A stretch of DNA of 55,857 bases from a virus. Where the stretch lies: the IMG/VR virus record IMGVR_UViG_3300010357_001710; one strand, 5' to 3'. The position numbers and the translations under genes are program-made. The notes beneath the pieces were generated by a model, which saw only the letters and a list, made by a program, of their open reading frames with translations, had not been told where the DNA came from and did not search any database. Positions 8,148-47,250 of the stretch are shown in pieces (positions within the stretch are counted from its first letter, which is position 1; the number at the start of each line of letters is the position of its first letter).

Positions 8148-8158
8148 AGGAGGAATTT

Positions 8159-8716: not shown

Positions 8717-8725
8717 GAGAAAAGA

Positions 8726-10019: not shown

Positions 10020-10034
10020 GTCATGAAATTGAAA

Positions 10035-10076: not shown

Positions 10077-10132
10077 TTAATATTATTTATTAAATTAATA
10101 TAGATTATAGTGAGAAGACCTCACACAGCAGC

Positions 10133-10585: not shown

Positions 10586-10586
10586 A

Positions 10587-11462: not shown

Positions 11463-11485
11463 TTATCCTCCTTTCCTATAGTTAT

Positions 11486-11515
11486 ATTATTGCTCGTTTT
11501 CTACTTTTTCGTCTA
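11486..11515 (-). promoter_or_regulatory. Class-II promoter candidate (TAGACG-N18-AATAAT)
   Basis: Minus strand: -35 at 11510-11515, -10 at 11486-11491 inside the motif GCAATAATA, ~22 nt before ATG 11462. Confidence 0.35.
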
Positions 11516-14848: not shown

Positions 14849-14867
14849 ATAAATCTTCCGCCTTTCC

Positions 14868-15062
14868 TTATTTGCTCATTATGAAAGTTTCACCAAAGCA
14901 CTCATTCATAAACTCGATTGCACGATTTTCAGATAACCCCATTATGAATGATTCACCTTCACAAGATACACGACCAGTGTTTTCATTCCAACGGACAGAT
15001 TTTCCATTCATTGTTCCAATTTTCTTTCCGAAGAAGACTTTTGAGAGTTTTTTTGTTGCCAT
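14868..15062 (-). CDS. Small early protein (64 aa), unknown function
   Basis: ATG at 15062 lies 6 nt after GAAAGGCGGAA and directly behind early promoter cassette E1. The track start at 15095 lies in the leader hairpin. Confidence 0.55.
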   Translation of the reverse strand: MATKKLSKVFFGKKIGTMNGKSVRWNENTGRVSCEGESFIMGLSENRAIEFMNECFGETFIMSK

Positions 15063-19905: not shown

Positions 19906-20748
19906 TTAAATATTTTCTAATACAAAATTGACTAATTTATCTTGGCACAATTCTTTCTTGTTTTCTTCTATGTATTTTATAAAACCTTCGTGCAGTATTA
20001 AAGAAGTGTTGCTTTCTGGTAACTTAAATTCTTTTATGCTATCATCATTAGCCATAGTATCTAGCAATTTAAAATCAGATTCATAAACATGTAATGACCC
20101 AACATTGTGGTATAGTTCTCCAAGAATCAATTCTGGGTACCAATACTTTAAAACTTTGAAAGCTTCTTTTTGAACTAATATAAAAAATGGAATGTCATAA
20201 GTCATTCCTTTTATTAAGTCTTGAGACCGCATATTTGAAATAAGAATAAGTTTATTGTTTCTTATGAATAATTGTAAATACATTGTGCAAACAAAATCTT
20301 TGTTCTCAAAGAATTGATGAGAAGAATTATTGAAATGCATAATAGCTTGTCTTGAATTCTTGTCTTTTATTAAAGAATTAATAGCCCAAAAATATTGCGT
20401 ATTTCCAAAAATATTTTCTTCTTTAAATATTAAAGCTCCATAATAACTATGAATAGGTTGCAATTTTAGCCAAAATTTTGAATATTTAGAAATAAACTCT
20501 AAAGAAGTAGAACCACCAAAATACCAGCACGTTTCTGCACAAAGATATTTTAAAATGTTTGGTCTGCTATTCATAGAAAAAAATTCTTCTGTAGTACGTC
20601 TTATACACAAATTTGCATTTATAGTTTCAATTACTTTGAAATCTCTTATTTTTACTTCGTTAAATTCCAACTCTTGAAAATAATTATGATTATTGAAACA
20701 CAGCAATAAGTTTGAGTAAAGAGAAGCAAAAGTATTACTTTCAATCAT
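19906..20748 (-). CDS. ThyA-fold pyrimidine C5 hydroxymethylase/methylase, most like T4 gp42 dCMP hydroxymethylase
   Basis: 'DFVCTMYLQLFIRNNKLILISNMRSQDLIKGMTYDIPFF' has the catalytic Cys and RS.D. It carries Asp in 'TYD' where ThyA has Asn in 'PFNIASY'. 'NVGSLHVYESDF' resembles gp42 'NVGSLHVYSRHF' (recalled from memory). Confidence 0.7.
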   Translation of the reverse strand: MIESNTFASLYSNLLLCFNNHNYFQELEFNEVKIRDFKVIETINANLCIRRTTEEFFSMNSRPNILKYLCAETCWYFGGSTSLEFISKYSKFWLKLQPIHSYYGALIFKEENIFGNTQYFWAINSLIKDKNSRQAIMHFNNSSHQFFENKDFVCTMYLQLFIRNNKLILISNMRSQDLIKGMTYDIPFFILVQKEAFKVLKYWYPELILGELYHNVGSLHVYESDFKLLDTMANDDSIKEFKLPESNTSLILHEGFIKYIEENKKELCQDKLVNFVLENI

Positions 20749-20755
20749 ACTTATT

Positions 20756-21355
20756 CTATCCTATTAATCCAGAATATTGTGATTTCATTATGTAAATTTC
20801 TATTAGAGATACAACTTCTTCTTTACTTGTTTTATTCAAATCAAAAAGCATAATTTTTTTAGACAAGCTTTTAGTTAAATTGATAATTGAAAACTCTTCA
20901 TGTTCTTGTATCATTTCTAAATTGTAATCTCTTATCAATTCTTGTTCTTCTGTTGGCTTAATACTTTTAAACAAACAAGTTAAATCATACAATTTATCAT
21001 AAGCATTCAAAGTGTCTATAAATTTATGTAATAAATTAAAGTAGTCTTTTTTCAAAGAATCAGAAAGTTGCGTATGATTTATATAATTTGTGAAATAAAA
21101 AAAGCAATCTACTAAAGTTCTATCACTTAAGTAAACTGTGTGCTTTTTTGATTCAAAAATTTTACTCAATCTGTCTTTAAATATTTTTTCTTGAACTTCT
21201 AAATTCATTGATGGGTTTTTTCTAAGTTCATTTATATCTTTAATCATTTTTCGTATCGGCTCTTCAATAAGAACAAAATCTTTATTTTTTTCTATAAGAG
21301 CTCTCATAATAGTAGATTTTCCACTATGTGATGCACCAGAGAATCCTATAATCAT
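20756..21355 (-). CDS. P-loop (deoxy)nucleoside-monophosphate kinase (putative)
   Basis: 'IIGFSGASHSGKST' P-loop at the extreme N-terminus and 'LSDRTLVD'. Sandwiched between the hydroxymethylase and the dCMP deaminase. Confidence 0.5.
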   Translation of the reverse strand: MIIGFSGASHSGKSTIMRALIEKNKDFVLIEEPIRKMIKDINELRKNPSMNLEVQEKIFKDRLSKIFESKKHTVYLSDRTLVDCFFYFTNYINHTQLSDSLKKDYFNLLHKFIDTLNAYDKLYDLTCLFKSIKPTEEQELIRDYNLEMIQEHEEFSIINLTKSLSKKIMLFDLNKTSKEEVVSLIEIYIMKSQYSGLIG

Positions 21356-21786
21356 ACTCCCTCCTGTTTGTATACTAGTATTCCACTATTTCTAAACATT
21401 TTTGTTGTTTCATTTCCATGATAGTCTTGTAAAAAATGAACTTCAGAAATTTCTAGATTTATTAATAGTCTTGCGCATTCTATACATGGAAGTGTAGTAC
21501 AATACAAAAAAGAACCTTTCAATGAAATCCCATGTTTTGCAGCTTGAACAATAGCGTTTTGCTCCGCGTGTACCGCATGACATAAATGTAAATCTTTTCC
21601 AGATTCTTCTCTAACGCAATTTTCACAATGCTTAAAGCCAATAGGAACTCCGTTATAACCAGTTGCCACTATGTTGTCATCTTTTACAAAAACTGCTCCT
21701 ACATTTCTTCTTAAGCAAGTAGAACGCTGAGCAACAGTCATAGCTATTTTCATAAAATATTGTTCTTTACTCATTCGAAAACGCAT
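21352..21786 (-). CDS. dCMP deaminase (zinc-dependent cytidine/deoxycytidylate deaminase family)
   Basis: 'HAEQNAI' and 'PCIECARLL' zinc-binding motifs. 144 aa. Confidence 0.9.
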   Translation of the reverse strand: MRFRMSKEQYFMKIAMTVAQRSTCLRRNVGAVFVKDDNIVATGYNGVPIGFKHCENCVREESGKDLHLCHAVHAEQNAIVQAAKHGISLKGSFLYCTTLPCIECARLLINLEISEVHFLQDYHGNETTKMFRNSGILVYKQEGV

Positions 21787-22183
21787 AATTTTTCTCCATG
21801 TATTCTTTAAATTCTACTAGAGAATTTATTTTTACTACTGGTAAATTTTCTCTTAAAGAAAGATTGTCAATAAGCGTAAATTCTTTTTTGTTTGTTTTAG
21901 CTCTAACATCGTTTAAAATAAAAATTTTAGAATAATGATGTGCTAAATTAAATCCCAACAAAGTTGGAATATATACTACATCATTAATGCTTCTAAAAAA
22001 TTCATCGTTGCCAACATGAACTATTTTAAAATAATTTTTTAAAATATTTGCAACTCTTACCGGAAAAGAATTCTCTAATTTGCTTAAAGAAATAGTACTT
22101 TTAGAATCTAATACAAGAGCATAGCCTTCACATTTTTCTGCGTTTGAAAGATTTTTTTCTATATCTTTTGTTATGCTTTCCAT
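21767..22183 (-). CDS. Hypothetical protein
   Basis: 138-aa ORF with AAGGAGGA RBS, preceded by a GCAATAATA motif. No motif recognised. Confidence 0.5.
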   Translation of the reverse strand: MESITKDIEKNLSNAEKCEGYALVLDSKSTISLSKLENSFPVRVANILKNYFKIVHVGNDEFFRSINDVVYIPTLLGFNLAHHYSKIFILNDVRAKTNKKEFTLIDNLSLRENLPVVKINSLVEFKEYMEKNYAFSNE

Positions 22184-22235
22184 ATAAATCCTCCTTTATT
22201 TATATTATTGCTAAAAGCTATGCTTTTTGTATTAT

Positions 22236-22676
22236 TTAATTTGTACTACCAAAACCACCAGAACCACGTTGACTTTCTTTATCAAATAACTCAGATTCAT
22301 GTGTTTGTAATAACTCAACTGAATTAAAATCTAATAGTATGAATTGAGCTATTTTATCACCAGCTCTTATTTCAGCAACTTTATTACTATAGTTTATAAG
22401 ATGAAGATGTATTTCTCCTTGATAGTCTGAATCAATTACACAAGCGCCTATAATAAGTTTTTTCTTTGTGGAAACCCCACTCTTATTGAATGAAATTAAA
22501 ACTTTTCCTTCTGGAAGATTCATTTTTATCCCAGAGGGAATAAGAATGTCTTCACCAGACATTAAAGCTACATCAATAAAATCATTTGGCACAAAGAAAT
22601 CAATACCTGCTGAACCAGTTGTTGAAACAAGTGGACTCTTAACATCTCTAACTTTTGCAAAATTAATTTTTTCCAT
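22236..22676 (-). CDS. dut: dUTP diphosphatase (trimeric dUTPase family)
   Basis: 'GSAGIDF', 'GACVIDSDYQGEI', 'RGSGGFGSTN'. ATG 22676 has an AAGGAG RBS. The track start at 22697 is a GTG within that RBS. Confidence 0.9.
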   Translation of the reverse strand: MEKINFAKVRDVKSPLVSTTGSAGIDFFVPNDFIDVALMSGEDILIPSGIKMNLPEGKVLISFNKSGVSTKKKLIIGACVIDSDYQGEIHLHLINYSNKVAEIRAGDKIAQFILLDFNSVELLQTHESELFDKESQRGSGGFGSTN

Positions 22677-22911
22677 CAATAATCTTCTCCTTTTCACTTC
22701 TTATTTTTTCTTTTATAGCTTCTAGCATATTTAAATCTTCATAAATAGTGTATAAATTTTTTGCATACCCTATTGACAAAAATAAACACAATATTCTTAC
22801 TATTAAGTCAGTGTGTTCTAAAAACAATATTGAAGTAATAATAAAAAATACAAAACTAAATAATAATTTTATTCTAAGCTGTTTTTTCAAGTAAGAATAC
22901 GTTTCTTTCAT
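22663..22911 (-). CDS. Small membrane protein
   Basis: 82 aa with hydrophobic segments (LLFSFVFFIITSILFL, ILCLFLSIGY). Confidence 0.45.
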   Translation of the reverse strand: MKETYSYLKKQLRIKLLFSFVFFIITSILFLEHTDLIVRILCLFLSIGYAKNLYTIYEDLNMLEAIKEKIRSEKEKIIDGKN

Positions 22912-23294
22912 TATATTTTTTCTTTCATTAATTTTGCAAGACCCTCATTTTCAAGCTTTCCTTCTTCTTGTAAAATTCTTTTTTCTAAATACCATTTAGC
23001 TTTTTTCAAATCTTCAATAGTATTTTGCTTTTTACCCGCTCTTGCAAGATATTTCACAACAGTAAATAGTATAGGGTCATTTTTAAACCAATCAATAAGA
23101 ACATAAAAAACCTCATAAAGTCTATCTGTATAATGTTGTGGATTATTGACGTTGTCAAAATTTTTATCTTTTCCTTGAATATTTAAACCTGTTTCTTTAA
23201 TAAGTTCTTTTGCTTCAACAGAAAAGGGTTTTTCTAGTAATGGATTTGGAACAATTATTTTATTATCAGAATTATACTGTCCTTTCAAATTCAT
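22911..23294 (-). CDS. DUF3310-family protein
   Basis: 'NNPQHYTD..YEV..VLIDW...FTVVKYLARAGKK..IEDLKKAKWYLEKRI' matches the DUF3310 signature. Confidence 0.55.
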   Translation of the reverse strand: MNLKGQYNSDNKIIVPNPLLEKPFSVEAKELIKETGLNIQGKDKNFDNVNNPQHYTDRLYEVFYVLIDWFKNDPILFTVVKYLARAGKKQNTIEDLKKAKWYLEKRILQEEGKLENEGLAKLMKEKI

Positions 23295-23322: not shown

Positions 23323-23346
23323 AAAAATAAGCAGGAAGTGTCCTGC
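23323..23346 (-). terminator. Rho-independent terminator after the GroES-like gene
   Basis: Minus strand: GCAGGA-cact-TCCTGC followed by TTATTTTT. A GCAATAATA promoter motif comes immediately after. Confidence 0.6.
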
Positions 23347-23643
23347 TTAATTTTGTTCTTGAATTACTCCAATAATATCTTCATAACGAACAATTAAATA
23401 TTCAGCGTCTTCAAAAGAATTAATCTTAATTCCTGTACCTGAAAACTTAGAAATAATTATTTCCATTTCAGGTTGAAGATTAAGTTTTGAAATTTCTTCT
23501 CCAGAACCAATTCTTTCTACAATGCCAATTTGAGTTTTTTCTCTAGAAACATCTGGAATAAACAAACCACTTTTAGTTTTTTCTTCCTCAATTTTCAATT
23601 TAACTAAGACACGGTCTTCTACAGGGATTACGATTTTTGTCAT
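23347..23643 (-). CDS. Co-chaperonin GroES/Cpn10 homologue
   Basis: 98 aa. 'IPVEDRVLVKLKIEEEKTKSGLFIPDVSREKTQIGIVERIGSG' matches the GroES pattern, including the mobile-loop region. Confidence 0.7.
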   Translation of the reverse strand: MTKIVIPVEDRVLVKLKIEEEKTKSGLFIPDVSREKTQIGIVERIGSGEEISKLNLQPEMEIIISKFSGTGIKINSFEDAEYLIVRYEDIIGVIQEQN

Positions 23644-24844: not shown

Positions 24845-25999
24845 TTATTCTCCTTTCTTTAAAGTGTCATTAATATTATTGTAAAGTAGATAACTTTCGT
24901 CAAGTAATTCTATCTTGTTATTAAGAAAATCTAAAACAAAATTAGTATAATCTGCAGCTGTATTTACAGGAACATTTTGAAAAACATGATGAAAATCTTC
25001 ACTTTGAAGTTTAAAATCATTTGGCAAAGACATTAATATCATAGTATCTCTAACACTTAAATATCTTTCTTCAATAGGATGAATTATTCTACAATTCTTT
25101 CCGATAATTGCATTTGTGTAATCTGATACTATGATTGGAGAAGGATTCCAATAACCAAGTCCATCATCTAATTTAGAAAGTATTCTTTTGAATCTTCTTA
25201 ACTCGTTATCATTTAAGTATTTTTTCAAAGTAGAAAGATTTTTTTTCTTTACACAGTAAGCAAGAATTGAATTTGTATTTTTGCCTTCAAGAATTATTTC
25301 TCTATAATTTTTTCCAAGTTCTTTTAGTGCATATAAGTAATAGCCATTTTCTTTTAGTGTATCTTTAACAATAAAATCATCAAAGTGCTTTAATGACGAG
25401 TAATTTTTTACACTTAGAAATTCATCAAGCTTAGTATAGTGTTTTTTTATTTGTTTTGGTTTTGGAATTTTATTACCCTCAAAAAAGAAATAAAAAGTTC
25501 TTACTCTATTTTGAGGTACTCCATGATTTAAAGTGCTAGTTTTAATTACAAGAAAAGTATACCCATTAGCTTTTCCAATTCTTTGTAATTTTTCTCTAAC
25601 AGCTTTTCCAGCGTCTGTAAATAAGTTAGGTGCGTTTTCTCCAAACATTACTCTTGGTTTTATAGTAGAAAGAACATAAGAAGCAGTTTTATACATCCAT
25701 TGATTTTGAATTGCTTCTTCCCCTCTACTTTTTTCTCCATTATCTTTAGAAGAGTTTAACATACTTAAACCTGCACAAGGACATACAGAAGATACAAAGT
25801 CAATTTTTTCTTTGAAAGAATATTTCTTTTCATCTAGTAAATAATAAGGAACGTTCTTAAGGTATTTAACTAAATGATTGTCATTATTGGAAAAAATAGA
25901 ATATGATAATAAACACTTTGGTTTTACTTTTGTAGCTTTTATATTTCCAAGAGTCATTCCACCTATCAATGGAATTATAGTTATATAGTTATACCCCAT
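24845..25999 (-). CDS. DNA (cytosine-5)-methyltransferase
   Basis: Motif IV 'CPCAGLS', VI 'ENAPNL', VIII 'QNRVRTFYF', X-like 'QNVPVN'. Motif I is degenerate ('PLIGGMTLG'). Confidence 0.75.
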   Translation of the reverse strand: MGYNYITIIPLIGGMTLGNIKATKVKPKCLLSYSIFSNNDNHLVKYLKNVPYYLLDEKKYSFKEKIDFVSSVCPCAGLSMLNSSKDNGEKSRGEEAIQNQWMYKTASYVLSTIKPRVMFGENAPNLFTDAGKAVREKLQRIGKANGYTFLVIKTSTLNHGVPQNRVRTFYFFFEGNKIPKPKQIKKHYTKLDEFLSVKNYSSLKHFDDFIVKDTLKENGYYLYALKELGKNYREIILEGKNTNSILAYCVKKKNLSTLKKYLNDNELRRFKRILSKLDDGLGYWNPSPIIVSDYTNAIIGKNCRIIHPIEERYLSVRDTMILMSLPNDFKLQSEDFHHVFQNVPVNTAADYTNFVLDFLNNKIELLDESYLLYNNINDTLKKGE

Positions 26000-27159: not shown

Positions 27160-28578
27160 TCAATTGCATAAAGAATTTGTCTTATATTTGTGGTTTTCTA
27201 TTGAATGAATTTTCTTTTTAAAAGAACCGCGCATTATTTCTGCTTTTTTTACTTCTGACACGAAAGTTTTTAATTCTTCTTTTGAAAGGTCTAAAGCAAC
27301 TTCATCAAAATGAACCCATTCATGGTCTTTATATTTCACATGCTTTTCAATCATTATTGCTCCAGCTGCTATAGCCATCATAGAACCAATACTTCCTAAG
27401 TCATGTCCAGAATAACCCGGTACAATATTTTTCATTCTACTTTTTAATGCAAATAAGATATTTATAACTCCAGTATTTATTTCTTCTAAAGGCGTTGGAT
27501 AACTAGAAAGAGTATGCAAAATAAATAAAAATCTTTTTTCTGAATAGAACTTATCAACAATTTCACTTATGTATTCTTCTCCTGTTGCACCAGTACTAAT
27601 AATTATGTCTTTGTGATAATTTTTGCTAACATACTCAATAAAATTTTTATGATTTGAAACTGTAGAAGGAATTTTAACTAGCTCAAGATTAAAAGTAGAG
27701 TTCATTAAATTAAAAGAAAATTTGTCTAAGATTGTACTAAACCACAAAATATTTTCTTTTTTGCAGAATGAGTCAAATTTCTTTAAATCATCTACTGTCA
27801 ATTCAACCCCACGTCTATAATCTCCATAAGTTTTTCCAAACTTAGATTCATATGGGCGTTGCAATTCTTCTTTAGTATAAAATAAATTCACATCTCTTTT
27901 TTGAATTTTAACTAAATCAGCTCCCTGTTCTGTAGCTAATTTTGCTATTTTACATAGTAAATCAATGTCTCCTAAGTGGTTATTTGTAATCTCTGCTACT
28001 ATTATTACTTCATTATTATTTACTTTCTCATCAATTAATGATTTTATACTTTTTTCTTTTTTAGTATAAAATTCAATATTTTGTTCTTTTATGAATTTAT
28101 TAAATTCTTCTTTTTGTTTTTCAAAATAGACTTTATTGAAGTCTTCAGTATTTATGCTTAATTTATTTGTTGAAGAATCAAAATTATATCCATCAATGTA
28201 TAGTCTCTCGCATCCTAATCCTTTTGCTATCTTTATAGAAAAAATAGCTGGATTTAAAATTAATGATGAGTCTATTAAATCTTCTTCTTCTAAAATTATT
28301 ATATTAGAAGAACTAATTTTATGTAATTTTTTAAAATCTTCTATTAAATCATATGGTATTAAATTTATGATGTTGAAATCTATATCTTTAATACTATATT
28401 TAGACTTAACAATATTAATTATAGTATTTGTTCTAAGGTTTCTATTTAAAGAGTTGTTCACTGTTATACAAAAAGAATTCTGAGCTAGTTCATGTTGTAA
28501 TTCTCCATTTCCAATTATATGGCACTCAGTTGGAAATTGACAATGAATATCTTTTATCTTCTTGCAAATATTTTCCAT
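27160..28578 (-). CDS. Fusion protein: N-terminal GT42/DUF115-like (CMP-sugar transferase-like) domain plus a NeuB-type nonulosonic acid synthase TIM barrel
   Basis: C-terminal ~280 aa: 'VAEITNNHLGDIDLLCKIAKLATEQGADLVKIQKR', 'LWFSTILD', 'VKIPS', 'IIISTGAT', 'LHTLSSYPTP', 'GYSGHDLG..AAGAIMIEKHV'. N-terminus: 'CHIIGNGELQ', 'CITVNN', 'KGLGCERLYIDGYNF', recalling CstII. No SAF domain at the C-terminus. Confidence 0.8.
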   Translation of the reverse strand: MENICKKIKDIHCQFPTECHIIGNGELQHELAQNSFCITVNNSLNRNLRTNTIINIVKSKYSIKDIDFNIINLIPYDLIEDFKKLHKISSSNIIILEEEDLIDSSLILNPAIFSIKIAKGLGCERLYIDGYNFDSSTNKLSINTEDFNKVYFEKQKEEFNKFIKEQNIEFYTKKEKSIKSLIDEKVNNNEVIIVAEITNNHLGDIDLLCKIAKLATEQGADLVKIQKRDVNLFYTKEELQRPYESKFGKTYGDYRRGVELTVDDLKKFDSFCKKENILWFSTILDKFSFNLMNSTFNLELVKIPSTVSNHKNFIEYVSKNYHKDIIISTGATGEEYISEIVDKFYSEKRFLFILHTLSSYPTPLEEINTGVINILFALKSRMKNIVPGYSGHDLGSIGSMMAIAAGAIMIEKHVKYKDHEWVHFDEVALDLSKEELKTFVSEVKKAEIMRGSFKKKIHSIENHKYKTNSLCN

Positions 28579-29200
28579 AGTATTTTTCTCCGTCTATTAA
28601 AACTTTACAATTAAATTGAATTGCTAAATTTATTCCAGCTAAAATATCCCAAGAACATGCTCTAGGATTATAATAATTTTTGAAACTTTTTGTTATAACA
28701 GAAAAAATATTATAAGTTGCACATCCAGTTATTCTATATTCTTCATAATTTTTAGACTCAGTAATAATTTCTTGTAAAGTCATAGAAGAAGATAAAGCAA
28801 CTATTCTACTTTTTTGTTTTGTAGAAATTGTTTTTTCGTCTAATGATGAAAGTTTTAAATTTAATTTTGGAAAATACAATAAAGAATATTCGTGGCTTTC
28901 ATTAAAATAAATTGCTAAACTGAACCCGAAAATAGGTATATTGTTTGCAAAATTTTCTGTACCGTCAATAGGGTCAATTACAATAGTATAAAGGGCTCTA
29001 TTGTTTTTTGTTATTTCTTCTTCTGATATAAATGAAAAATCATCAAAAAAGTGTTTACAAAGTACTTTAATTTTTTTACTTATAAGTTTGTCTATGTCTG
29101 TTACTATTGATTTGTCTTCTTTAATAAAAAAATTTGAAGGTTTTCTTAAATTTTCATCAATAGTTAAAATAACGCTTTGTTCAAAACTATCATAGCGCAT
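28526..29200 (-). CDS. Inositol-monophosphatase-fold sugar-phosphate/nucleotide phosphatase
   Basis: 'IVTDIDK', 'ISEEE', 'VIDPIDGTENF', 'SWDILAG'. ATG 29200 has a GAGAGGTGGA RBS and overlaps the upstream stop (ATGcgctaTGA). Confidence 0.75.
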   Translation of the reverse strand: MRYDSFEQSVILTIDENLRKPSNFFIKEDKSIVTDIDKLISKKIKVLCKHFFDDFSFISEEEITKNNRALYTIVIDPIDGTENFANNIPIFGFSLAIYFNESHEYSLLYFPKLNLKLSSLDEKTISTKQKSRIVALSSSMTLQEIITESKNYEEYRITGCATYNIFSVITKSFKNYYNPRACSWDILAGINLAIQFNCKVLIDGEKYYGKYLQEDKRYSLSISN

Positions 29201-29924
29201 TTGAAAATCCACCTCTCATTTTTTCAACATACATACTTCTTGCTAAAAGAAAATCTTCAATAGTGTCTACATCAATAGAGTCTATAACTCTATTTTCTAA
29301 AAAGTATGGATTTTCACCGATGAAATATCTTCTTTCTAAAAGTTTTTCAAATTTTCCACCATATAGTGCGTTGTTAACTTCAAACACTGGAGAAATGTTT
29401 TGTGTATATTGATGATTCTCATTTGCACAATAATTTACTGTTTTGCCATGGTACCAGAAAAAACCTCTTTTCATAACTCCTGAAATTATAGAATCATAAG
29501 AACCACAAATAACTTCAGAATAATATTTATAAATTGCATCTCTGTATAAAGATTCATCAAACATAGGAGAAGTTGGATAAGTTATTAGTAAGTGTGAAAC
29601 TTTTCTTTTCTTTTTTATTTCTGTAAAAAGATTGTGTAAAAGATCACTAAATTTGATAGAATCATCTGTAAATAGAGTAGTATCTCTAATAATTTGCGTG
29701 CAATTATTTTCATTTAAAGAAAAATCAAAGCTTGTAAGAATATTACTTTTTGGAATACCAGAGTTTATAATTTGATTCATCTTTATTTCTATAAGAGATT
29801 TTTCTCCATAAAATTGTCTTGTGTTTTTTTCTCTTACTCGTGAAGAATTAGACCTCGCTAAAACTAAAATGTAAATTTTTTCTTTTTTACAAATTTTTTG
29901 TACATATTGATAATTAAATATCAT
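29190..29924 (-). CDS. Acylneuraminate/KDO-type cytidylyltransferase (CMP-sugar synthetase, NeuA/KdsB family)
   Basis: N-terminus 'YILVLARSNSSRVREKN' (the ..ARxxS.R...KN signature). ~244 aa, the typical size. Confidence 0.6.
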   Translation of the reverse strand: MIFNYQYVQKICKKEKIYILVLARSNSSRVREKNTRQFYGEKSLIEIKMNQIINSGIPKSNILTSFDFSLNENNCTQIIRDTTLFTDDSIKFSDLLHNLFTEIKKKRKVSHLLITYPTSPMFDESLYRDAIYKYYSEVICGSYDSIISGVMKRGFFWYHGKTVNYCANENHQYTQNISPVFEVNNALYGGKFEKLLERRYFIGENPYFLENRVIDSIDVDTIEDFLLARSMYVEKMRGGFSNAL

Positions 29925-29925: not shown

Positions 29926-31176
29926 TTAATCTTCCTTTCTAAAAAGAACTGATTCTTTATAAAAAGTATTTTTGTTAGTTTCTTTGTTATTTGTCTTAGT
30001 TACTTTAGAAAGATATTTTAAAAAAATGTTATTTACAAATTCTCCAGTAAAATACTCTTTTTTAAATTGAGAAGAATGAAATTCTAAAATTTGATTGTAA
30101 AATTGTGGATTAGATTCTAAGAAGTTTATTTTCTCAACTAATTCTTTTCTAGAAGATATTCTTAAGTATTCATGAACTGGTTGATTTTTTTGAGAGTCCA
30201 TAGACTTATGATAGAACGGAATTATACCAAAATTAATCATCTTCCAAAATTTTGAAGAAGGAAAACCATCTTCAAAATGAAACATTAAAGTATATTTTGT
30301 TCTATATAATCTATCAGTAGCATCAACCATTGGAAGATTGAAAAAATATTTTTTGTATTGTTCTTCTATTAGTTCTTCACTCCATTTGCCAAGACAATAA
30401 AATGGAATTTTATGCATATATTCTTTTATGATTTTAAATTTCTTTTCTCCAGCAGACCCATTCCCATTTGTGTAGATATCTAAAAAATTTGTTTTCTTAT
30501 ATTTTTTGTAATCATATACTTTTTCTATATCTTCAGAAACTAAAAACCATCTATCATATTCTTCATTAATTATTTGTTCTTTTATAGAAACTAAATCTTT
30601 AGATAAGTATTCTTTTGCAAATTTAGTTTTAACTTCTATATTTTGAGTTGATAAATAAGCTAATGGTCTATGAAATAAATCTCTTGCTGGTATTGGAAAA
30701 TATCTTGGATCTTCACCCATTACAACATACGGTATTTTACTTTCATTTAAAAAGTGAACCATCGGTCCACAATAAAGTTTTGACATGTTTATTACTTTTG
30801 CGATTTCTCCTGATTTTAATTGGTAGCTTTTTTCTGGAATATTTACTTGAGAAACTGGACCTAAGTGAAGATAACCAAAATCTATTGAAACTTTTTTCTC
30901 ATTAAAATAATCTATGATGTAGTTTATTCTGTCATGTTTTTTTGCATCGAAGTCTTTCCAAACGTCAATTACATTATTGTTTGGAAAATATTTTTCTTTA
31001 ATCTCTTTTGAAAGAGAACTAAAGTCATTTGTTCCTATAATGAAGAATTTTTTACTCGGGTTTAGTGCTGCAAGAGTAATTATAAGAGAAGATACTTCAG
31101 AATCTCCAGAATCTATAGTCCATTTATTTCTATTAAAATAGAACTTTTTTCCCAATTTTCCTACAGCTATATTCAT
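29926..31176 (-). CDS. Glycosyltransferase-like protein, possibly T4 beta-glucosyltransferase-like (GT-B)
   Basis: 416 aa. By-eye colinear resemblance to T4 BGT as I recall it ('MNIAVGKLG' vs 'MKIAIINMG', 'MGEDPRYFPIP' vs 'TDIRLPF', 'IYTNGNGSAGEKKF' vs 'IYGGSFRSGQRE', C-terminal 'SSRKELVEKINFLESN' vs 'NNRAELIDRVNELKHS'). Needs a profile search. Confidence 0.4.
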   Translation of the reverse strand: MNIAVGKLGKKFYFNRNKWTIDSGDSEVSSLIITLAALNPSKKFFIIGTNDFSSLSKEIKEKYFPNNNVIDVWKDFDAKKHDRINYIIDYFNEKKVSIDFGYLHLGPVSQVNIPEKSYQLKSGEIAKVINMSKLYCGPMVHFLNESKIPYVVMGEDPRYFPIPARDLFHRPLAYLSTQNIEVKTKFAKEYLSKDLVSIKEQIINEEYDRWFLVSEDIEKVYDYKKYKKTNFLDIYTNGNGSAGEKKFKIIKEYMHKIPFYCLGKWSEELIEEQYKKYFFNLPMVDATDRLYRTKYTLMFHFEDGFPSSKFWKMINFGIIPFYHKSMDSQKNQPVHEYLRISSRKELVEKINFLESNPQFYNQILEFHSSQFKKEYFTGEFVNNIFLKYLSKVTKTNNKETNKNTFYKESVLFRKED

Positions 31177-44284: not shown

Positions 44285-44944
44285 ATGAAAATAGTAGAAC
44301 AAAAATGCGAATTAATTACTAAAATAAAAGAAGAAGATATTTGTAAAATGATAGAGTATTGTGGTAGAGTTGCGTATTTAAGTTTTGGTAGAATTTCAAA
44401 AGAATCTTACAAAGATTTTATAAATATGCTTTTACAAAAACAGCATCTTTCTGTGTTTGAGCATATTTCTTTTACTTTTAAAATTACGACAGATAGAGGA
44501 ATTTCTCACGAATTAGTTAGACATAGAATAGCAAGTTTTACTCAAGAATCTACTAGGTTTTGCAATTATAACAATAAAGATATAGAATTCATATCTCCAT
44601 TTACTTTTACTGAAGGGAAAGAAGAACAAGTAGAGTTATTTTTTCAAATGATAAAACAAAGTGAATTTGTTTACAAAGAACTTATAAACTCTGGAATGTC
44701 TCCGCAATGGTCAAGAAGTGTTTTACCAAATTCATTAAAGACAGAACTTTTTATGACAGCTAATTTGCGCCAAATTTTTCATATAGTAAAATTACGCGTT
44801 TCAAAACAAGCTCACCCACAAATGCAGCATTTAATTCGTGAAATGGTTTCTCAATTAAAAGCATATTACCCAATAATTTTTAACTCAGAATACTTTAATA
44901 ACGAAATACTTTGTGGGAGGGAACAAAATGAATTTTTATCTTAA
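44285..44944 (+). CDS. thyX: Flavin-dependent thymidylate synthase ThyX
   Basis: ThyX signature 'VRHRIASFTQESTRF' (RHRxxSxxxxS). 219 aa. Confidence 0.9.
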   Translation: MKIVEQKCELITKIKEEDICKMIEYCGRVAYLSFGRISKESYKDFINMLLQKQHLSVFEHISFTFKITTDRGISHELVRHRIASFTQESTRFCNYNNKDIEFISPFTFTEGKEEQVELFFQMIKQSEFVYKELINSGMSPQWSRSVLPNSLKTELFMTANLRQIFHIVKLRVSKQAHPQMQHLIREMVSQLKAYYPIIFNSEYFNNEILCGREQNEFLS

Positions 44945-45782: not shown

Positions 45783-47250
45783 TTCAGTAAGTTCTCTTGG
45801 CTGGGCTTTTAAAAATAGAATAATAGAAGGTAAGCCTTATACATTAAAAGGTAGAGAGTTTCTTCGTGAAATCTATTCTCATTTTATAAATGAAAAAGTT
45901 AAAAAAGAAGTTGTAATAATGAAAGGTGCGCAGCTTGGAGTTTCTGAGCTTGCTGTGAATCTTGGTTTGTATGTAGTAGACAACATAGGTGACGTTATGT
46001 ATCTTCTTCCAGGGGGTGGAGATGCTAGTAATTTTTCATCTGGGAGATTCAACCCAGCTATAGAAAATTCTGAAAGACTTTCTAATTTGTTCAATGATGT
46101 TTCAAATATAGGGCACAAAAGAACGGGTGAAAGAAATTTATTTGTTCGTGGAGCAAATTCTGAATCTGGACTTCGCTCAACTCCAGTAGATTTTCTTGTC
46201 ATAGATGAATATTCTTTAATGCCAGAACGTTCAGTAGAACTTGCATTAGATAGATTAGATGCAAGTGAGTATAAGTGGATTTTGAAATTATCTACACCTT
46301 TGCTTCCTGAAATGAACATACACTCAGCATTTTTACAATCAGACCAAAGAGAATTTTTTGTAAAATGCTCAAAATGCGGTTTAGAGCAACCAGTAGATTT
46401 TTTTGAAAATATATTTTTAAACCATGAAAAAGAATCTTATTTTTATGGTTGCAAAAAATGTAAAACAGAGCTTAATAGAAATTTTGGACAGTGGAAAGCT
46501 TTAGCTAAGTCTAAAGTTCCGGGTTATCATATTTCTCAAACGTTAAGTCCTACTGTTTCTGCAGACGATTTAATGGATAAATTTGAAAAAACAAAATTTT
46601 CAGCGACAGTAAAAGAAAATTTTTACAATAGCAAGTTAGGATTGCCTTATGTTTGTGAGGGTGACAAACTTTTACATGAAGACTTAGAAGCTGCTAAATT
46701 TGAAGAAGTTAAATTACCTCAAGTTTGTGGTATTGACGTTGGAAGTTATTTACACGTTATTTTTTACGATTCTTTTGGAAATATTTGCAAAGTTCAAAAG
46801 TATAGAGACTTTGCTGAAGTAGAAAGAATAATTTTACAGTCTGGAATTACTGTTGCTGTTATTGATGCGATGCCAGAAACTAGAAAAGCTAGAGAATTGC
46901 AAGAGTCTTTAAAAAAGAATTGTAAAGTTTTTCTATGTCGCTATGTAGATAATTCAAAAGCAGAACTTAACTTTACAGAAAATGAAGACTCTCAATTTGT
47001 TACTGCAGATAGAACTTCTATTTGCGATGCTATTGTTGGAAGATATAAGACAAAGACTATTAAAATTCCTGGTACTGTAGATGAAGAATTTTGTAATCAA
47101 TTAAAAGCACCAATGAGAACAATTGTTGATGGTGTTCCTAGATATGTTGAAGTTGGTGCTGACCATTATTTCCATGCTAACGTATATGCAGAAATTGCTT
47201 ATTCTTATTACAAAGACAAATTAAGAACACCAAGTTTGAGGAGATTATGA
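45697..47250 (+). CDS. Terminase large subunit, GpA (lambda-like) family
   Basis: 'VVIMKGAQLGVSELAVN' (GpA-type P-loop region), 'DFLVIDEYS' Walker B, and a zinc ribbon 'CSKCGLEQ...CKKCKTEL'. The start is uncertain and overlaps the upstream ORF by 86 nt. Confidence 0.8.
   Translation: MKKSKMNSLETLSSENLLNHIKNASKLIDSVSSLGWAFKNRIIEGKPYTLKGREFLREIYSHFINEKVKKEVVIMKGAQLGVSELAVNLGLYVVDNIGDVMYLLPGGGDASNFSSGRFNPAIENSERLSNLFNDVSNIGHKRTGERNLFVRGANSESGLRSTPVDFLVIDEYSLMPERSVELALDRLDASEYKWILKLSTPLLPEMNIHSAFLQSDQREFFVKCSKCGLEQPVDFFENIFLNHEKESYFYGCKKCKTELNRNFGQWKALAKSKVPGYHISQTLSPTVSADDLMDKFEKTKFSATVKENFYNSKLGLPYVCEGDKLLHEDLEAAKFEEVKLPQVCGIDVGSYLHVIFYDSFGNICKVQKYRDFAEVERIILQSGITVAVIDAMPETRKARELQESLKKNCKVFLCRYVDNSKAELNFTENEDSQFVTADRTSICDAIVGRYKTKTIKIPGTVDEEFCNQLKAPMRTIVDGVPRYVEVGADHYFHANVYAEIAYSYYKDKLRTPSLRRL

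What the first reader, a model, noticed from the sequence alone, without database searches (positions are those of the whole stretch)
19906..22676. T4-style 5-hydroxymethyl-dCMP precursor module in a 56-kb siphovirus-type genome
Four genes lie together: a ThyA-fold enzyme (19906-20748), a P-loop NMP kinase (20756-21355), dCMP deaminase (21352-21786) and dUTPase (22236-22676).

The ThyA-fold protein keeps the catalytic Cys and RS.D ('FVCTMY...NMRSQDLIKGMTYDIPFF'). It has Asp where E. coli ThyA has Asn177 ('LPFNIASY'). Established mutagenesis and gp42 structures tie that position to cytosine versus uracil specificity. 'NVGSLHVYESDF' closely resembles the gp42 C-terminal motif as I recall it.

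A separate ThyX (44285-44944) already covers dTMP synthesis, so the ThyA-fold enzyme is free for a modification role. No gp56-type dCTPase is recognisable, so replacement of C may be partial or may use an unrecognised enzyme.
Basis: partly seen in the sequence, partly recalled or inferred. Interest (0 to 1): 0.7.

Follow-up and report, generated by a model that had tools for sequence, protein, structure and literature searches.

The report
Phage hydroxymethylcytosine-plus-sugar DNA modification pathway

Summary
Four minus-strand genes lie together: a TS-fold enzyme, a P-loop kinase, dCMP deaminase and dUTPase.

The TS-fold protein is not ThyA. It scores 28 bits against equivalog cutoffs of 108-405. 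Its best solved relatives are MilA and T4 gp42.

By the published residue code (E. coli numbering) it reads 143 Asp, 147 Thr, 169 Asp, 177 Asp, 167 Ser, 126 Arg. That is the same as gp42. It differs from ThyA, SPO1 dUMP-HMase, RB69 5-hydroxy-dCMP synthase, the Xp12 TS homolog and ribo-specific MilA. All 120 relatives share this code. I predict a dCMP 5-hydroxymethylase.

The kinase-then-HMase gene pair recurs in Bacteroides phages next to a carbamoyltransferase.

New finding: about 6 kb upstream in the same gene array lies an operon of four genes. The first is an orphan 416-aa protein whose confident model best matches T4 beta-glucosyltransferase. The others are a PseF-like cytidylyltransferase, an IMPase-family phosphatase and a NeuB-like synthase. 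The same three sugar genes sit beside a GT29 sialyltransferase in a Sphingobacterium capsule locus. A C5-methylase-like gene accompanies the cassette in 8 of 10 contexts, and I cannot explain that.

Most likely product: 5hmC DNA glycosylated with a CMP-activated ulosonic acid. This is a new variant of a known kind. No gp56-type dCTPase exists, so replacement may be partial.

The parts
19906..20748 (-). TS-fold enzyme, predicted dCMP 5-hydroxymethylase (gp42/MilA-like)
   Evidence: Pfam Thymidylat_synt 41 bits. PDB best hits: MilA 1e-14, T4 gp42 4.7e-13, ThyA 2e-4 or worse. Only 28 bits against ThyA equivalog cutoffs of 108-405. Residue code 143D/147T/169D/177D/167S/126R matches gp42.
20756..21355 (-). 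Divergent P-loop kinase, inferred 5hm-dCMP (dNMP) kinase
   Evidence: Walker A motif GASHSGKST. Pfam AAA_28 3e-8. PHROG 'thymidylate kinase' 1e-6. No PDB sequence hit. Its only phage homologs directly precede a TS-fold HMase in Bacteroides phages. ATGA overlap with the deaminase gene.
21352..21786 (-). dCMP deaminase
   Evidence: Pfam dCMP_cyt_deam_1 2.9e-26. PHROG dCMP deaminase 3.5e-46. HAE and PCxxC motifs present.
21767..22183 (-). Unassigned 138-aa ORF inside the nucleotide module
   Evidence: No significant Pfam, PHROG or NCBIfam hit.
22236..22676 (-). Trimeric dUTPase (not gp56-type)
   Evidence: Pfam dUTPase 8.2e-22. NCBIfam dut 93 bits. No similarity to CC31 gp56. AAGGAG ribosome-binding site before the ATG at 22676.
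22911..23294 (-). DUF3310 protein (T7 gp1.7-type 'nucleotide kinase' PHROGs), a second candidate kinase
   Evidence: Pfam DUF3310 1.7e-12. PHROG_236 nucleotide kinase 4e-19.
23328..23349 (-). Terminator-like hairpin just upstream of the nucleotide module
   Evidence: 9-bp stem with 4 GC pairs and a T-run. This is a consensus match only.
24845..25999 (-). C5 cytosine DNA-methylase-like enzyme, a recurrent partner in the glycosyltransferase cassette
   Evidence: Pfam DNA_methylase 2.2e-15. Motifs I, IV (Cys), VI (ENAP), VIII (RxR) and X (QNVPV) are invariant in 5 cassettes. Present in 8 of 10 U440 contexts.
27160..28578 (-). NeuB/PseI-like PEP-condensing ulosonic-acid synthase. It has an N-terminal Rossmann-like extension and lacks the SAF domain.
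   Evidence: Pfam NeuB 6.9e-44. NCBIfam NeuB 133 bits and PseI 112 bits, both below equivalog cutoffs. AF2 model pLDDT 88; Foldseek hits 6ncs 2.5e-15 and PseI 8h2c. N-terminal domain unidentified.
28526..29212 (-). Inositol-monophosphatase-family phosphatase, inferred ulosonate-phosphate phosphatase
   Evidence: Pfam Inositol_P 2.7e-21. Same position in the Sphingobacterium capsule module.
29190..29924 (-). PseF/CMP-NeuAc-synthetase-like cytidylyltransferase
   Evidence: NCBIfam PseF 2.5e-12 over the full length. PDB CMP-NeuAc synthetase 6ifd 4e-4. Orthologs in other cassettes hit CTP_transf_3.
29926..31176 (-). U440: T4 beta-glucosyltransferase-like GT-B enzyme, predicted DNA 5hmC glycosyltransferase
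   Evidence: No Pfam, PHROG or NCBIfam hit. AF2 pLDDT 90. Foldseek PDB top hits are T4 BGT entries 1j39, 1nzd, 1bgt and 1qkj at about 1e-7. BFVD 'DNA beta-glucosyltransferase' 4e-25. Homolog of Planchet glycosyltransferase PLANC_61 beside its HMase, 1e-41.
44285..44944 (+). ThyX flavin-dependent thymidylate synthase, which supplies dTMP
   Evidence: Pfam Thy1 2.9e-45. ThyX also present in related loci L010, L012, L013 and L021.
47247..48566 (+). GT2-family (GT-A) glycosyltransferase between terminase and portal. It may be a second glycosyltransferase. Its link to the pathway is untested.
   Evidence: Pfam Glycos_transf_2 1.8e-20. PHROG beta-1,4-glycosyltransferase 9e-24.

Best explanation
The phage encodes a two-stage cytosine hypermodification pathway of the T4 type.

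Stage 1 is pre-replicative. dUTPase and dCMP deaminase feed dUMP to ThyX for dTMP. The TS-fold enzyme uses methylene-tetrahydrofolate to convert dCMP to 5-hydroxymethyl-dCMP. Its Cys154 attacks C6, Asp185 reads the cytosine N3/N4 face, and Asp151 admits water to the exocyclic methylene, so no hydride transfer occurs. The adjacent P-loop kinase, possibly helped by the DUF3310 protein, phosphorylates 5hm-dCMP. Host NDP kinase makes the triphosphate, and the phage PolA incorporates it.

Stage 2 is post-replicative. A four-gene operon makes and uses an activated acidic sugar. The NeuB-like enzyme condenses PEP with a (phospho)sugar. The IMPase-family enzyme removes the phosphate. The PseF-like enzyme activates the ulosonic acid with CTP. 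The T4-beta-GT-like protein U440 transfers it to the hydroxyl of 5hmC in DNA.

No dCTPase is present, so replacement of C may be incomplete. The C5-methylase-like enzyme that travels with the cassette may cover the residual cytosines.

What is shown: gene presence and order, folds, active-site residue code, and conserved synteny.
What is inferred: all activities, the sugar's identity, the DNA acceptor, and the extent of replacement.

Confidence by sub-claim:
- dCMP hydroxymethylase: about 0.85.
- U440 is a DNA glycosyltransferase acting on 5hmC: about 0.7.
- The donor is a CMP-ulosonic acid made by the cassette: about 0.55.
- The kinase acts on 5hm-dCMP: about 0.6.
For: TS-fold enzyme:
- PDB sequence hits are MilA 1e-14 and gp42 4.7e-13, against ThyA at 2e-4 or worse.
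- It fails the ThyA equivalogs, 28 bits against 108-405.
- Residue code: 143 D (hydroxymethyl, not methyl), 169 D (not the flavin 5-hydroxylase), 177 D (cytosine), 147 T, 167 S and 126 R (deoxy). It is identical to CC31 gp42. It differs from EcThyA (L/H/D/N), SPO1 gp29 (D/N/D/N), RB69 gp48 (E/T/N/D), the Xp12 TS homolog (N/P/D/D) and MilA at 167/126.
- All 120 relatives share the code.
- The family is sister to the gp42 clade.

Kinase:
- Its only phage homologs sit directly upstream of a TS-fold HMase in Bacteroides phages, next to a carbamoyltransferase. That is the experimentally validated 5hmC-to-5-carbamoyloxymethyl-C layout.

U440:
- AF2 pLDDT 90. Four of the five best PDB matches are T4 BGT entries. 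A viral protein annotated 'DNA beta-glucosyltransferase' matches at 4e-25.
- It is homologous to the glycosyltransferase beside the HMase in Enterococcus phage Planchet (1e-41), and to the gene immediately upstream of the HMase in the Agathobaculum phage.
- A TS-fold gene lies in the visible region in 6 of 10 U440 contexts.

Sugar module:
- The same three genes in the same order lie beside a GT29 sialyltransferase in a Sphingobacterium capsule locus.
- U440 directly abuts a CTP_transf_3-type module in 8 of 10 contexts.

Precedent:
- T4-beta-GT-like phage GTs install Kdo, or cytidylyltransferase-dependent sugars, on 5hmC. GT-B GTs associate with ThyS homologs and dCMP deaminase.
Against: No biochemistry or DNA composition data exist for this phage. 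Everything about activity is inferred.

The 143 rule (acidic means hydroxymethyl) is correlative. The only 5mC-phage reference available, Xp12, has Asn there and not Leu.

The kinase has no detectable similarity to T4 gp1-type DNMK or to the Planchet kinase. It is absent from the flanks of the related cassettes.

No dCTPase is present.

A conserved, apparently active C5-cytosine methylase would have no substrate in fully 5hmC DNA, which argues against complete replacement.

U440 could use a host UDP-sugar as T4 BGT does. The fold does not specify the donor.

The NeuB-like and PseF-like proteins score below the NCBIfam equivalog cutoffs, so the sugar's identity is open.

The N-terminal domain of the NeuB-like protein is unidentified.

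The sugar genes are about 6 kb from the TS-fold gene in this genome, with unrelated genes between them.
Confidence: 0.7

Rival explanations
1. The nucleotide module makes 5hmC as proposed, but the NeuB/IMPase/PseF genes are not for DNA. They would serve host-surface or virion glycosylation, or sugar-pool manipulation. U440 would then use a host UDP-sugar as T4 BGT does, or the DNA would stay as plain 5hmC.
For: The three sugar genes derive from a capsule-type locus. A separate GT2 glycosyltransferase sits in the structural module and could use the CMP-sugar. The fold does not fix donor specificity. The sugar operon is about 6 kb from the TS-fold gene.
Against: U440 and the cytidylyltransferase are directly adjacent or overlapping in 8 of 10 contexts, even though the condensing enzyme varies between NeuB-like and HMGL-like. 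In L019, L020 and L022 the GT, sugar genes, methylase, kinase-like gene and TS-fold gene form one contiguous block. In the phage, the bacterial GT29 is replaced by a T4-BGT-like enzyme. Kdo on 5hmC has precedent.
Confidence: 0.2
2. The TS-fold enzyme is an Xp12-type dCMP methylase that makes 5-methyl-dCMP, so the DNA carries 5mC.
For: Asp at position 177 is shared with the Xp12 TS homolog. A ThyA N177D mutant methylates dCMP. A C5-methylase in the genome shows that 5mC is tolerated.
Against: Position 143 is Asp, as in gp42, MilA and SPO1 HMases. ThyA has Leu there and Xp12 has Asn. Position 147 is Thr, where Xp12 has Pro. Xp12 pairs its enzyme with DHFR. No DHFR was found here, and dTMP comes from ThyX, which does not produce dihydrofolate (the ThyX point is established knowledge). 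In the tree the Xp12 enzyme branches outside the cytosine-HMase group. The co-travelling glycosyltransferase needs a hydroxyl acceptor.
Confidence: 0.06
3. The TS-fold enzyme is a flavin- and O2-dependent 5-hydroxy-dCMP synthase (RB69 gp48 / DLP3 gp80 type), and the sugar is ether-linked to 5-hydroxycytosine.
For: These enzymes also have Asp177 and an acidic residue at 143, and they are followed by DNA glycosyltransferases and nucleotide-sugar genes.
Against: The diagnostic D169N substitution is absent. The query and all 120 relatives keep Asp169. They also keep W80 and Y209, where RB69 gp48 has Ala and Phe.
Confidence: 0.04
4. The TS-fold enzyme acts on uracil or on a ribonucleotide. It would be a dUMP hydroxymethylase (SPO1 type), a true thymidylate synthase, or a CMP hydroxymethylase (MilA type).
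For: Public annotations call relatives 'thymidylate synthase' or 'deoxyuridylate hydroxymethyltransferase'. The closest homolog, P0002, sits beside radical-SAM enzymes, which recalls thymidine hypermodification clusters. MilA is the top PDB hit.
Against: Position 177 is Asp, whereas SPO1 gp29 and ThyA both have Asn. The protein falls far below ThyA cutoffs. ThyX already provides dTMP. Positions 167 and 126 are Ser and Arg (deoxy type), not the Ala and Lys of MilA and BcmA. The protein annotated as a dUMP-HMase in the Agathobaculum phage also has Asp177 and Thr147, so that label is probably wrong.
Confidence: 0.03

Closest known systems
Bacteriophage T4 cytosine modification pathway (gp42 dCMP hydroxymethylase, gp1 dNMP kinase, gp56 dCTPase, Cd dCMP deaminase, alpha/beta-glucosyltransferases)
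   Same: A TS-fold enzyme with the gp42 active-site code. A kinase next to it. dCMP deaminase is present. A beta-GT-like GT-B enzyme is encoded in the same gene array.
   Different: About 28% identity to gp42. The kinase is unrelated to gp1 by sequence. No gp56 dCTPase is present. dTMP comes from ThyX, not Td. The sugar donor is apparently a phage-made CMP-ulosonic acid, not host UDP-glucose. A C5-methylase-like gene is part of the cassette. The virus is a ~56-kb siphovirus-like phage, not a 170-kb myovirus.
Metaviromic ThyS- or MT/5mYOX-linked DNA glycosyltransferase clusters (Pyle et al., bioRxiv 10.1101/2023.12.21.572611), including GT94 (Kdo on 5hmC) and contig 53 (cytidylyltransferase plus GT-B)
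   Same: A T4-beta-GT/BshA/MshA-like GT-B enzyme. Association with ThyS homologs and dCMP deaminase. An ulosonic acid or a cytidylyltransferase-dependent sugar on 5hmC.
   Different: In that work Kdo came from the host pool, and 5hmC came from methyltransferase plus TET. Here the phage carries a complete three-gene NeuB-type supply module and makes 5hmC pre-replicatively. A methyltransferase is present, but no TET was found. NeuB, sialic and nonulosonic sugars are not mentioned in that paper.
MetaGPA 5-carbamoyloxymethylcytosine clusters (TS homolog plus carbamoyltransferase; eLife 2021, PMC8670742) and Bacteroides phage BF503P2
   Same: An Asp177-type TS homolog generates 5hmC as a handle. 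The same AAA_28 kinase family directly precedes the TS-fold gene.
   Different: The downstream decoration is carbamoylation there and glycosylation here.
RB69 / DLP3 arabinosyl-5-hydroxycytosine pathway (NAR 2026, PMC13326640)
   Same: An Asp177 TS homolog, a dNMP kinase, phage-encoded nucleotide-sugar synthesis and DNA glycosyltransferases.
   Different: Those enzymes carry D169N and hydroxylate C5 with flavin and O2. The query keeps Asp169. The sugar there is UDP-arabinose, not a CMP-ulosonic acid.
Bacteroidota capsule-locus module CTP_transf_3 / Inositol_P / NeuB(~520 aa) / GT29 (Sphingobacterium wenxiniae)
   Same: The same three genes in the same order. The NeuB-like protein is 45-50% identical and includes the N-terminal extension.
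   Different: The bacterial module feeds a GT29 sialyltransferase and capsule export. The phage module is fused to a T4-BGT-like enzyme and sits among replication genes.

Membership tests
T4 gp42-type dCMP 5-hydroxymethylase (TS fold) | Catalytic Cys (Ec146) and the R166-S167-x-D169, E58, Y94, H207, Y209 core | tested here: met
   All are present in the query and in 120 of 120 relatives.
T4 gp42-type dCMP 5-hydroxymethylase (TS fold) | Asp at Ec177 (cytosine specificity) | tested here: met
   Asp185 in 'MTYDIPFF', at fixed spacing from RSxD. gp42, MilA and the query have D. ThyA and SPO1 gp29 have N. Rule.
T4 gp42-type dCMP 5-hydroxymethylase (TS fold) | Acidic residue at Ec143 (water access, so a hydroxymethyl and not a methyl product) | tested here: met
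   Asp151 in 'NKDFVC', the same D-x-x-C spacing as in gp42. Rule. The rule is correlative.
T4 gp42-type dCMP 5-hydroxymethylase (TS fold) | Deoxyribose preference: Ser at Ec167 and Arg at Ec126 | tested here: met
   S175 and R present. MilA has Ala and Lys.
T4 gp42-type dCMP 5-hydroxymethylase (TS fold) | Catalytic conversion of dCMP plus CH2-THF to 5hm-dCMP | not testable with these tools
   Needs an enzyme assay or in vivo reconstitution.
Bona fide thymidylate synthase ThyA | Score above NCBIfam ThyA equivalog cutoffs, with Asn177, Leu143 and His147 | tested here: not met
   Best score 28 bits against cutoffs of 108-405. Residues are D, D and T.
5-hydroxy-dCMP synthase (RB69 gp48 / DLP3 gp80) | Asn at Ec169 (D169N diagnostic) | tested here: not met
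   The query and 120 of 120 relatives have Asp. RB69 gp48 has Asn.
dUMP hydroxymethylase (SPO1 gp29 type) | Asn at Ec177 with an acidic residue at 143 | tested here: not met
   Position 177 is Asp in the query and Asn in SPO1 gp29.
Xp12-type dCMP methylase | Asp177 with a non-acidic residue at 143, and a DHFR partner to recycle dihydrofolate | tested here: not met
   The query has Asp at 143 and Xp12 has Asn. DHFR is adjacent in Xp12, and none was found in the window. The Xp12 enzyme's own activity is inferred from the phage's 5mC DNA.
T4 beta-glucosyltransferase-like DNA glycosyltransferases (GT-B) | Two-Rossmann GT-B fold closest to T4 BGT | tested here: met
   AF2 pLDDT 90. Foldseek top PDB hits are T4 BGT at 1.6e-7 to 1e-6, probability 1.0, TM 0.5-0.58. 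BFVD 'DNA beta-glucosyltransferase' 4e-25, TM 0.81.
T4 beta-glucosyltransferase-like DNA glycosyltransferases (GT-B) | Sequence-level membership (Pfam or PHROG family hit) | tested here: not met
   No Pfam, PHROG, NCBIfam or PDB sequence hit. About 13% identity to T4 BGT in the structural alignment. It forms its own family of 685 representative clusters.
T4 beta-glucosyltransferase-like DNA glycosyltransferases (GT-B) | Genomic association with a 5hm-pyrimidine-generating enzyme | tested here: met
   A TS-fold gene is in the visible region in 6 of 10 contexts. Homologs sit beside the HMase in the Planchet and Agathobaculum phages.
T4 beta-glucosyltransferase-like DNA glycosyltransferases (GT-B) | Transfer of a sugar to 5hmC in duplex DNA | not testable with these tools
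   Needs an in vitro assay on T4 gt-minus DNA or LC-MS of virion DNA.
Nonulosonic-acid synthase (NeuB / PseI / LegI) | NeuB TIM-barrel domain | tested here: met
   Pfam NeuB 6.9e-44. Foldseek 6ncs 2.5e-15 and PseI 8.4e-15.
Nonulosonic-acid synthase (NeuB / PseI / LegI) | Equivalog-level score, which would identify the sugar, and a C-terminal SAF domain | tested here: not met
   133 bits against 400 (NeuB) and 112 against 340 (PseI). The match ends at model position 272 of 329 and the protein ends there, so there is no SAF domain.
T4 gp1-type dNMP kinase | Sequence similarity to DNMK, or a solved dNMP-kinase relative | tested here: not met
   Only AAA_28 and weak PHROG 'thymidylate kinase' hits. 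No PDB hit. The function is inferred from conserved adjacency to HMase genes.
T4 gp56-type dCTPase | dUTPase_2 / all-alpha NTP-pyrophosphatase homolog in the genome | tested here: not met
   CC31 gp56 is dUTPase_2. It has no tblastn hit in the window. No MazG or NUDIX domain appeared in the scanned ORFs.
C5 cytosine DNA methyltransferase | Motifs I, IV (catalytic Cys), VI (ENV), VIII (QxRxR) and X | tested here: met
   PLxGGMxxG, [PV]C[AS]GLS, ENAP, RxRTF and QNVPV are invariant across 5 cassettes. Pfam 2.2e-15. Methyl transfer itself was not tested.

The most novel reading that the evidence does not exclude
The virion DNA would carry 5-hydroxymethylcytosine O-glycosylated with a sialic-acid-like ulosonic acid. 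The phage would make and CMP-activate that sugar itself, using a three-gene module captured from a bacterial capsule locus, and install it with a previously unclassified family of T4-beta-GT-like DNA glycosyltransferases. This amounts to 'sialylated' DNA.

The C5-methylase-like enzyme that travels with this cassette would be a functional part of the chemistry and not just a bystander methylase.
Probability: 0.4. Interest if true: 0.8.

Novelty: new variant of a known kind. Interest (0 to 1): 0.6.

Why it matters
On its own, the TS-fold module adds one more non-T4 phage to the growing list that make 5hmC before replication. That is useful but expected.

The wider locus matters more. It predicts a new class of DNA decoration: a CMP-activated ulosonic, sialic-acid-like sugar on 5hmC. 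It also comes with a self-contained, portable gene set of four genes plus the HMase and kinase. That set could be reconstituted in E. coli with published assays.

If confirmed, it would:
- extend the known chemistry of natural DNA;
- define a large family of DNA glycosyltransferases (685 clusters) that current domain databases do not recognise;
- show that capsule sugar modules are recruited for DNA camouflage;
- provide enzymes for labelling 5hmC with charged, bio-orthogonally addressable sugars.

The conserved C5-methylase partner raises a testable question. How do pre-replicative 5hmC and post-replicative 5mC coexist in one genome?

Tried and rejected
- True ThyA: rejected on NCBIfam cutoffs and residues.

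- dUMP-HMase: I considered it because the closest homolog sits by radical-SAM genes and some relatives are annotated that way. It is rejected because Asp177 is universal in the family, whereas SPO1 gp29 has Asn.

- 5-hydroxy-dCMP synthase: rejected on Asp169.

- CMP-specific MilA-type: rejected on Ser167 and Arg126.

- Window dUTPase as a gp56 analogue: no similarity.

- Hidden TET/5mYOX, MazG or NUDIX: none appeared in Pfam scans of about 58 ORFs. ORFs shorter than about 90 aa, and remote homologs, are not excluded.

- IMG/VR scans for close relatives of the NeuB-like protein and U440 found nothing.

- Megablast of the region failed on query length and I did not repeat it. The terminase has only about 25% identity to cultured phages.

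- N-terminal domain of the NeuB-like protein: the profile search against PDB gave nothing. Pfam MptE-like matched only 2 of 13 members at E about 0.01. It remains unassigned.

- Promoter scan: uninformative in this AT-rich DNA (100 hits against 83 +/- 9 expected).

- Host: left unresolved. The sugar module and the kinase point to Bacteroidota. However, a related contig carries FlaG and FliS.

- Literature: searches found no report of nonulosonic acids on DNA. The library is incomplete.

Full report
**1. Observation**

The window is ENA contig ERZ27257414:k141_1351317. Its first and last 127 bases are identical, so it is a circular assembly of a complete ~55.7-kb genome. GC content is about 27-28%.

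It has head, portal, protease, tape-measure and endolysin genes. No sheath-sized ORF lies between the head genes and the tape measure. The terminase is only about 25% identical to any cultured phage.

The four ORFs in the finding are real and all lie on the minus strand. In transcription order they are:
- dUTPase (22676-22236; Pfam 8.2e-22)
- an unassigned 138-aa ORF
- dCMP deaminase (21786-21352; 2.9e-26; HAE and PCxxC motifs)
- a P-loop protein (21355-20756; AAA_28)
- the TS-fold protein (20748-19906; Thymidylat_synt, only 41 bits)

The deaminase and kinase genes overlap by ATGA. The kinase and TS-fold genes are 7 nt apart. ThyX at 44285-44944 is confirmed (2.9e-45).

**2. What the TS-fold enzyme is**

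It is not a thymidylate synthase. Its best NCBIfam ThyA equivalog score is 28 bits, against cutoffs of 108-405.

Among solved structures its best sequence matches are the two cytosine hydroxymethylases:
- MilA: 1e-14
- T4 gp42: 4.7e-13
- True ThyA entries: 2e-4 to 0.5

The query has NVGSLHVYESDF and gp42 has NVGSLHVYSRHF.

The literature supplies an explicit residue code, in E. coli ThyA numbering:
- Position 177: Asn for uracil, Asp for cytosine.
- Position 147: the second-best discriminator between TS homologs on modified-C and unmodified contigs (MetaGPA, PMC8670742).
- Position 143: Leu for a methyl product, Asp or Glu for hydroxymethyl.
- Position 169: Asp normally, Asn in the recently discovered flavin- and O2-dependent 5-hydroxy-dCMP synthases of RB69, DLP3 and RL38J1 (PMC13326640).
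- Positions 167 and 126: Ser and Arg for deoxy substrates, Ala and Lys for ribo substrates (MilA paper, PMC5175136).

I fetched experimentally anchored references and aligned them. Residues at 143/147/169/177:

| Enzyme | 143/147/169/177 |
|---|---|
| EcThyA | L/H/D/N |
| SPO1 gp29 (dUMP-HMase) | D/N/D/N |
| CC31 gp42 | D/T/D/D |
| MilA | D/T/D/D (with Ala167) |
| RB69 gp48 | E/T/N/D |
| Xp12 TS homolog (5mC phage) | N/P/D/D |
| Query | D/T/D/D (with Ser167 and Arg126) |

The query matches gp42 exactly. These positions sit at fixed spacing from the invariant Cys and R-S-x-D, so the reading does not depend on the alignment.

All 120 closest relatives share the code. They come from 315 hits, all metagenomic and about 40% identical. 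In a neighbour-joining tree the family is sister to the gp42 clade and lies away from ThyA and Xp12 (no bootstrap).

Xp12 pairs its enzyme with a DHFR. This phage has none. It uses ThyX, which does not generate dihydrofolate (established knowledge). That fits a hydroxymethylase, which releases THF.

My conclusion is a predicted dCMP 5-hydroxymethylase, at about 0.85 confidence.

**3. The kinase, deaminase, dUTPase and the missing dCTPase**

The P-loop protein is very divergent. It has no PDB sequence hit and no similarity to the kinase beside the Planchet HMase.

Its only phage homologs are in six Bacteroides fragilis phages. In BF503P2 the homolog (2e-10) overlaps the start of a TS-fold gene with the D/T/D/D code. 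It directly follows a carbamoyltransferase, and dut lies just downstream. That is the arrangement MetaGPA validated experimentally for 5hmC to 5-carbamoyloxymethyl-C.

So the kinase-then-HMase pair is conserved across distant phages. This supports a 5hm-dCMP kinase role, but that role is inferred. A DUF3310 protein (T7 gp1.7-like PHROGs) at 22911-23294 is a second candidate kinase.

T4-type gp56 is a dUTPase_2 protein. It is unrelated to the window's trimeric dUTPase and absent from the window. No MazG or NUDIX domain was found. Related cassettes L019 and L020 do carry a NUDIX gene next to the kinase-like and TS-fold genes.

**4.

About 6 kb upstream in the same minus-strand gene array lies a tight operon. 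Its genes are 1 nt apart or overlapping. In order:
- U440 (31176-29926): 416 aa, with no hit in Pfam, PHROGs, NCBIfam or PDB sequences.
- A PseF / CMP-NeuAc-synthetase-like cytidylyltransferase (NCBIfam PseF 2.5e-12 over the full length; PDB 6ifd 4e-4).
- An inositol-monophosphatase-family phosphatase (2.7e-21).
- A NeuB-like synthase (6.9e-44).

A family alignment gave a confident U440 model (pLDDT 90, pTM 0.89). Four of its five best PDB matches are T4 beta-glucosyltransferase entries (1j39, 1nzd, 1bgt, 1qkj; about 1e-7; probability 1.0). The GT-B enzymes MshA and BshA rank alongside them. Pyle et al. report the same set for phage DNA GTs that install Kdo or cytidylyltransferase-dependent sugars on 5hmC.

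Against viral models, the top matches are an uncharacterised Myoviridae protein (8e-29, TM 0.79/0.84) and a protein annotated 'DNA beta-glucosyltransferase' (4e-25).

U440 is homologous (1e-41) to the glycosyltransferase PLANC_61 in Enterococcus phage Planchet. That phage has the order kinase, HMase, dUTPase, followed by three GTs. U440 is also weakly homologous to the gene immediately upstream of the HMase in an Agathobaculum phage.

An exhaustive profile search shows the family is large: 685 clusters at E<=1e-3 and 236 at E<=1e-30.

**5. The sugar module and its origin**

The NeuB-like model (pLDDT 88) has a C-terminal TIM barrel. It is closest to the SAF-less Leptospira NeuB and to PseI, with KDO8P and DAHP synthases more distant.

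It lacks the SAF domain. It carries an N-terminal Rossmann-like domain that I could not identify.

Its nearest cellular relatives are ~520-aa proteins of Bacteroidota, 45-50% identical. In Sphingobacterium wenxiniae the same three genes occur in the same order (CTP_transf_3, Inositol_P, NeuB). They sit inside a capsule-export locus and are followed directly by a GT29 sialyltransferase.

So the phage trio is a captured module for making a CMP-activated sialic-acid-like sugar. The presence of a phosphatase implies a phosphorylated substrate, as in the KDN and animal Neu5Ac routes. That point is inference from established pathways. In the phage, the bacterial sialyltransferase is replaced by a T4-BGT-like enzyme.

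**6. Conservation of the cassette**

I examined ten U440 contexts (window).
- A CTP_transf_3-type cytidylyltransferase module directly abuts U440 in 8 of 10.
- The condensing enzyme varies. It is NeuB-like in five contexts, HMGL-like plus a HAD phosphatase in three, and a SIS / epimerase / HAD set in one.
- The common theme is an aldol-type 2-keto-acid sugar that is dephosphorylated and CMP-activated.
- A TS-fold gene lies in the visible region in 6 of 10. The misses are short contigs or contigs cut at the cassette.
- In L019, L020 and L022 the GT, sugar genes, methylase, (NUDIX), kinase-like gene and TS-fold gene form one contiguous block.

This supports the view that the GT uses the cassette's sugar and acts downstream of the HMase.

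**7. An unexplained constant**

A C5 cytosine-methylase-like gene (24845-25999) is part of the cassette in 8 of 10 contexts. Its motifs I, IV (Cys), VI (ENAP), VIII and X are intact.

No TET/5mYOX was found in the window. In L019 every cassette gene has another assignment.

Fully 5hmC DNA would offer such an enzyme no substrate. The simplest reading is incomplete replacement, with methylation of the residual C. A non-methyl chemistry cannot be excluded; CmoX (PMC12783734) is a precedent.

**8. Comparison with what is known, and novelty**

The concept is known. TS-homolog-derived 5hmC, and GT-B DNA glycosyltransferases associated with ThyS and dCMP deaminase, have both been described in metaviromes. 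Kdo on 5hmC has been reported in a preprint.

I found no report of a phage-encoded NeuB / phosphatase / cytidylyltransferase supply module coupled to a DNA GT, nor of nonulosonic acids on DNA. The searchable library is incomplete.

None of the four cassette proteins has a PHROG family. IMG/VR holds no close relatives.

I rate the TS-fold module alone as a new member of a known kind. I rate the whole locus as a new variant of a known kind.

**9. Verdict**

- Observation: confirmed.
- Interpretation: supported, and extended.
- Confidence in the combined mechanism: 0.7.
- Interest: 0.6.

All activities are inferred. The decisive experiments are simple heterologous reconstitutions followed by nucleoside LC-MS.

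Noticed in passing
window 24845-25999 (-); also L010:8801-10033, L011:14126-15328, L012:14970-16169, L013:9344-10480, L019:10382-11692, L020:9556-10893, L022:13592-14305: A C5 cytosine-methylase-like gene with intact catalytic motifs is a near-constant member (8 of 10 contexts) of the U440 glycosyltransferase cassette, although the phages also make 5hmC pre-replicatively and no TET was found. Its role is unexplained.
   Followed up: partly
window 47247-48566 (+): A GT2-family (GT-A fold) glycosyltransferase sits between the large terminase and the portal. This is an unusual place for one. It may be a second DNA or virion glycosyltransferase.
   Followed up: partly
window 27160-28578 (-), residues 1-185: The NeuB-like enzyme has an N-terminal Rossmann-like domain. 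Its family motif is IIGKGxS...NLND...GFDF. It is shared with ~520-aa Bacteroidota homologs and absent from the 286-aa version in L021. There is no PDB or Pfam match beyond a faint MptE-like signal.
   Followed up: partly
window 1-127 and 55731-55857: An exact 127-bp terminal overlap shows a circular assembly, so the genome is complete at ~55.7 kb.
   Followed up: yes
window 23347-23643 (-): A Cpn10/GroES-like co-chaperonin gene lies between the exonuclease and the nucleotide module (precomputed Pfam hit listed).
   Followed up: no
window 41020-41091 (-): A single tRNA-Glu (anticodon TTC).
   Followed up: no
window 14306-14848 (-): A phage-encoded sigma-70 region-2 protein lies next to the PolA / replication genes.
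   Followed up: no
L006:3838-4500 (Agathobaculum phage AB434P2, WAX05085.1): This protein is annotated 'deoxyuridylate hydroxymethyltransferase', but it has Asp177, Thr147 and Asp143 (the cytosine-HMase code). The annotation is probably wrong. The gene upstream of it is a weak U440 homolog.
   Followed up: partly
L014 (Bacteroides phage BF503P2) 5166-11196: The order is carbamoyltransferase, AAA_28 kinase, TS-fold, dut, then a second TS-fold gene. Both TS-fold genes have Asp177. This is a cultured-phage example of the MetaGPA 5-carbamoyloxymethyl-C layout, with two HMase paralogs.
   Followed up: partly
L020:12277-13953: The TS-fold gene of a related cassette is 558 aa and carries an intein with an HNH endonuclease.
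   Followed up: no
L004 (JGI 3300071653, Ga0620611_000708) 7767-14890: The closest homolog of the TS-fold protein (48% identity, Asp177) sits between two radical-SAM enzymes (SPASM type and LAM_C type), next to RNR. This suggests a different, uncharacterised downstream cytosine chemistry.
   Followed up: no
L019:11707-12132 and L020:10883-11320: A NUDIX hydrolase lies between the methylase-like and kinase-like genes in the HMGL-type cassettes. It is a candidate functional replacement for the gp56 dCTPase. No counterpart was found in the window.
   Followed up: partly
L013:306-1011: A contig carrying the same cassette also encodes FlaG and FliS (flagellar proteins). This conflicts with the Bacteroidota host hints from the sugar module and the kinase. 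The host remains unresolved.
   Followed up: no
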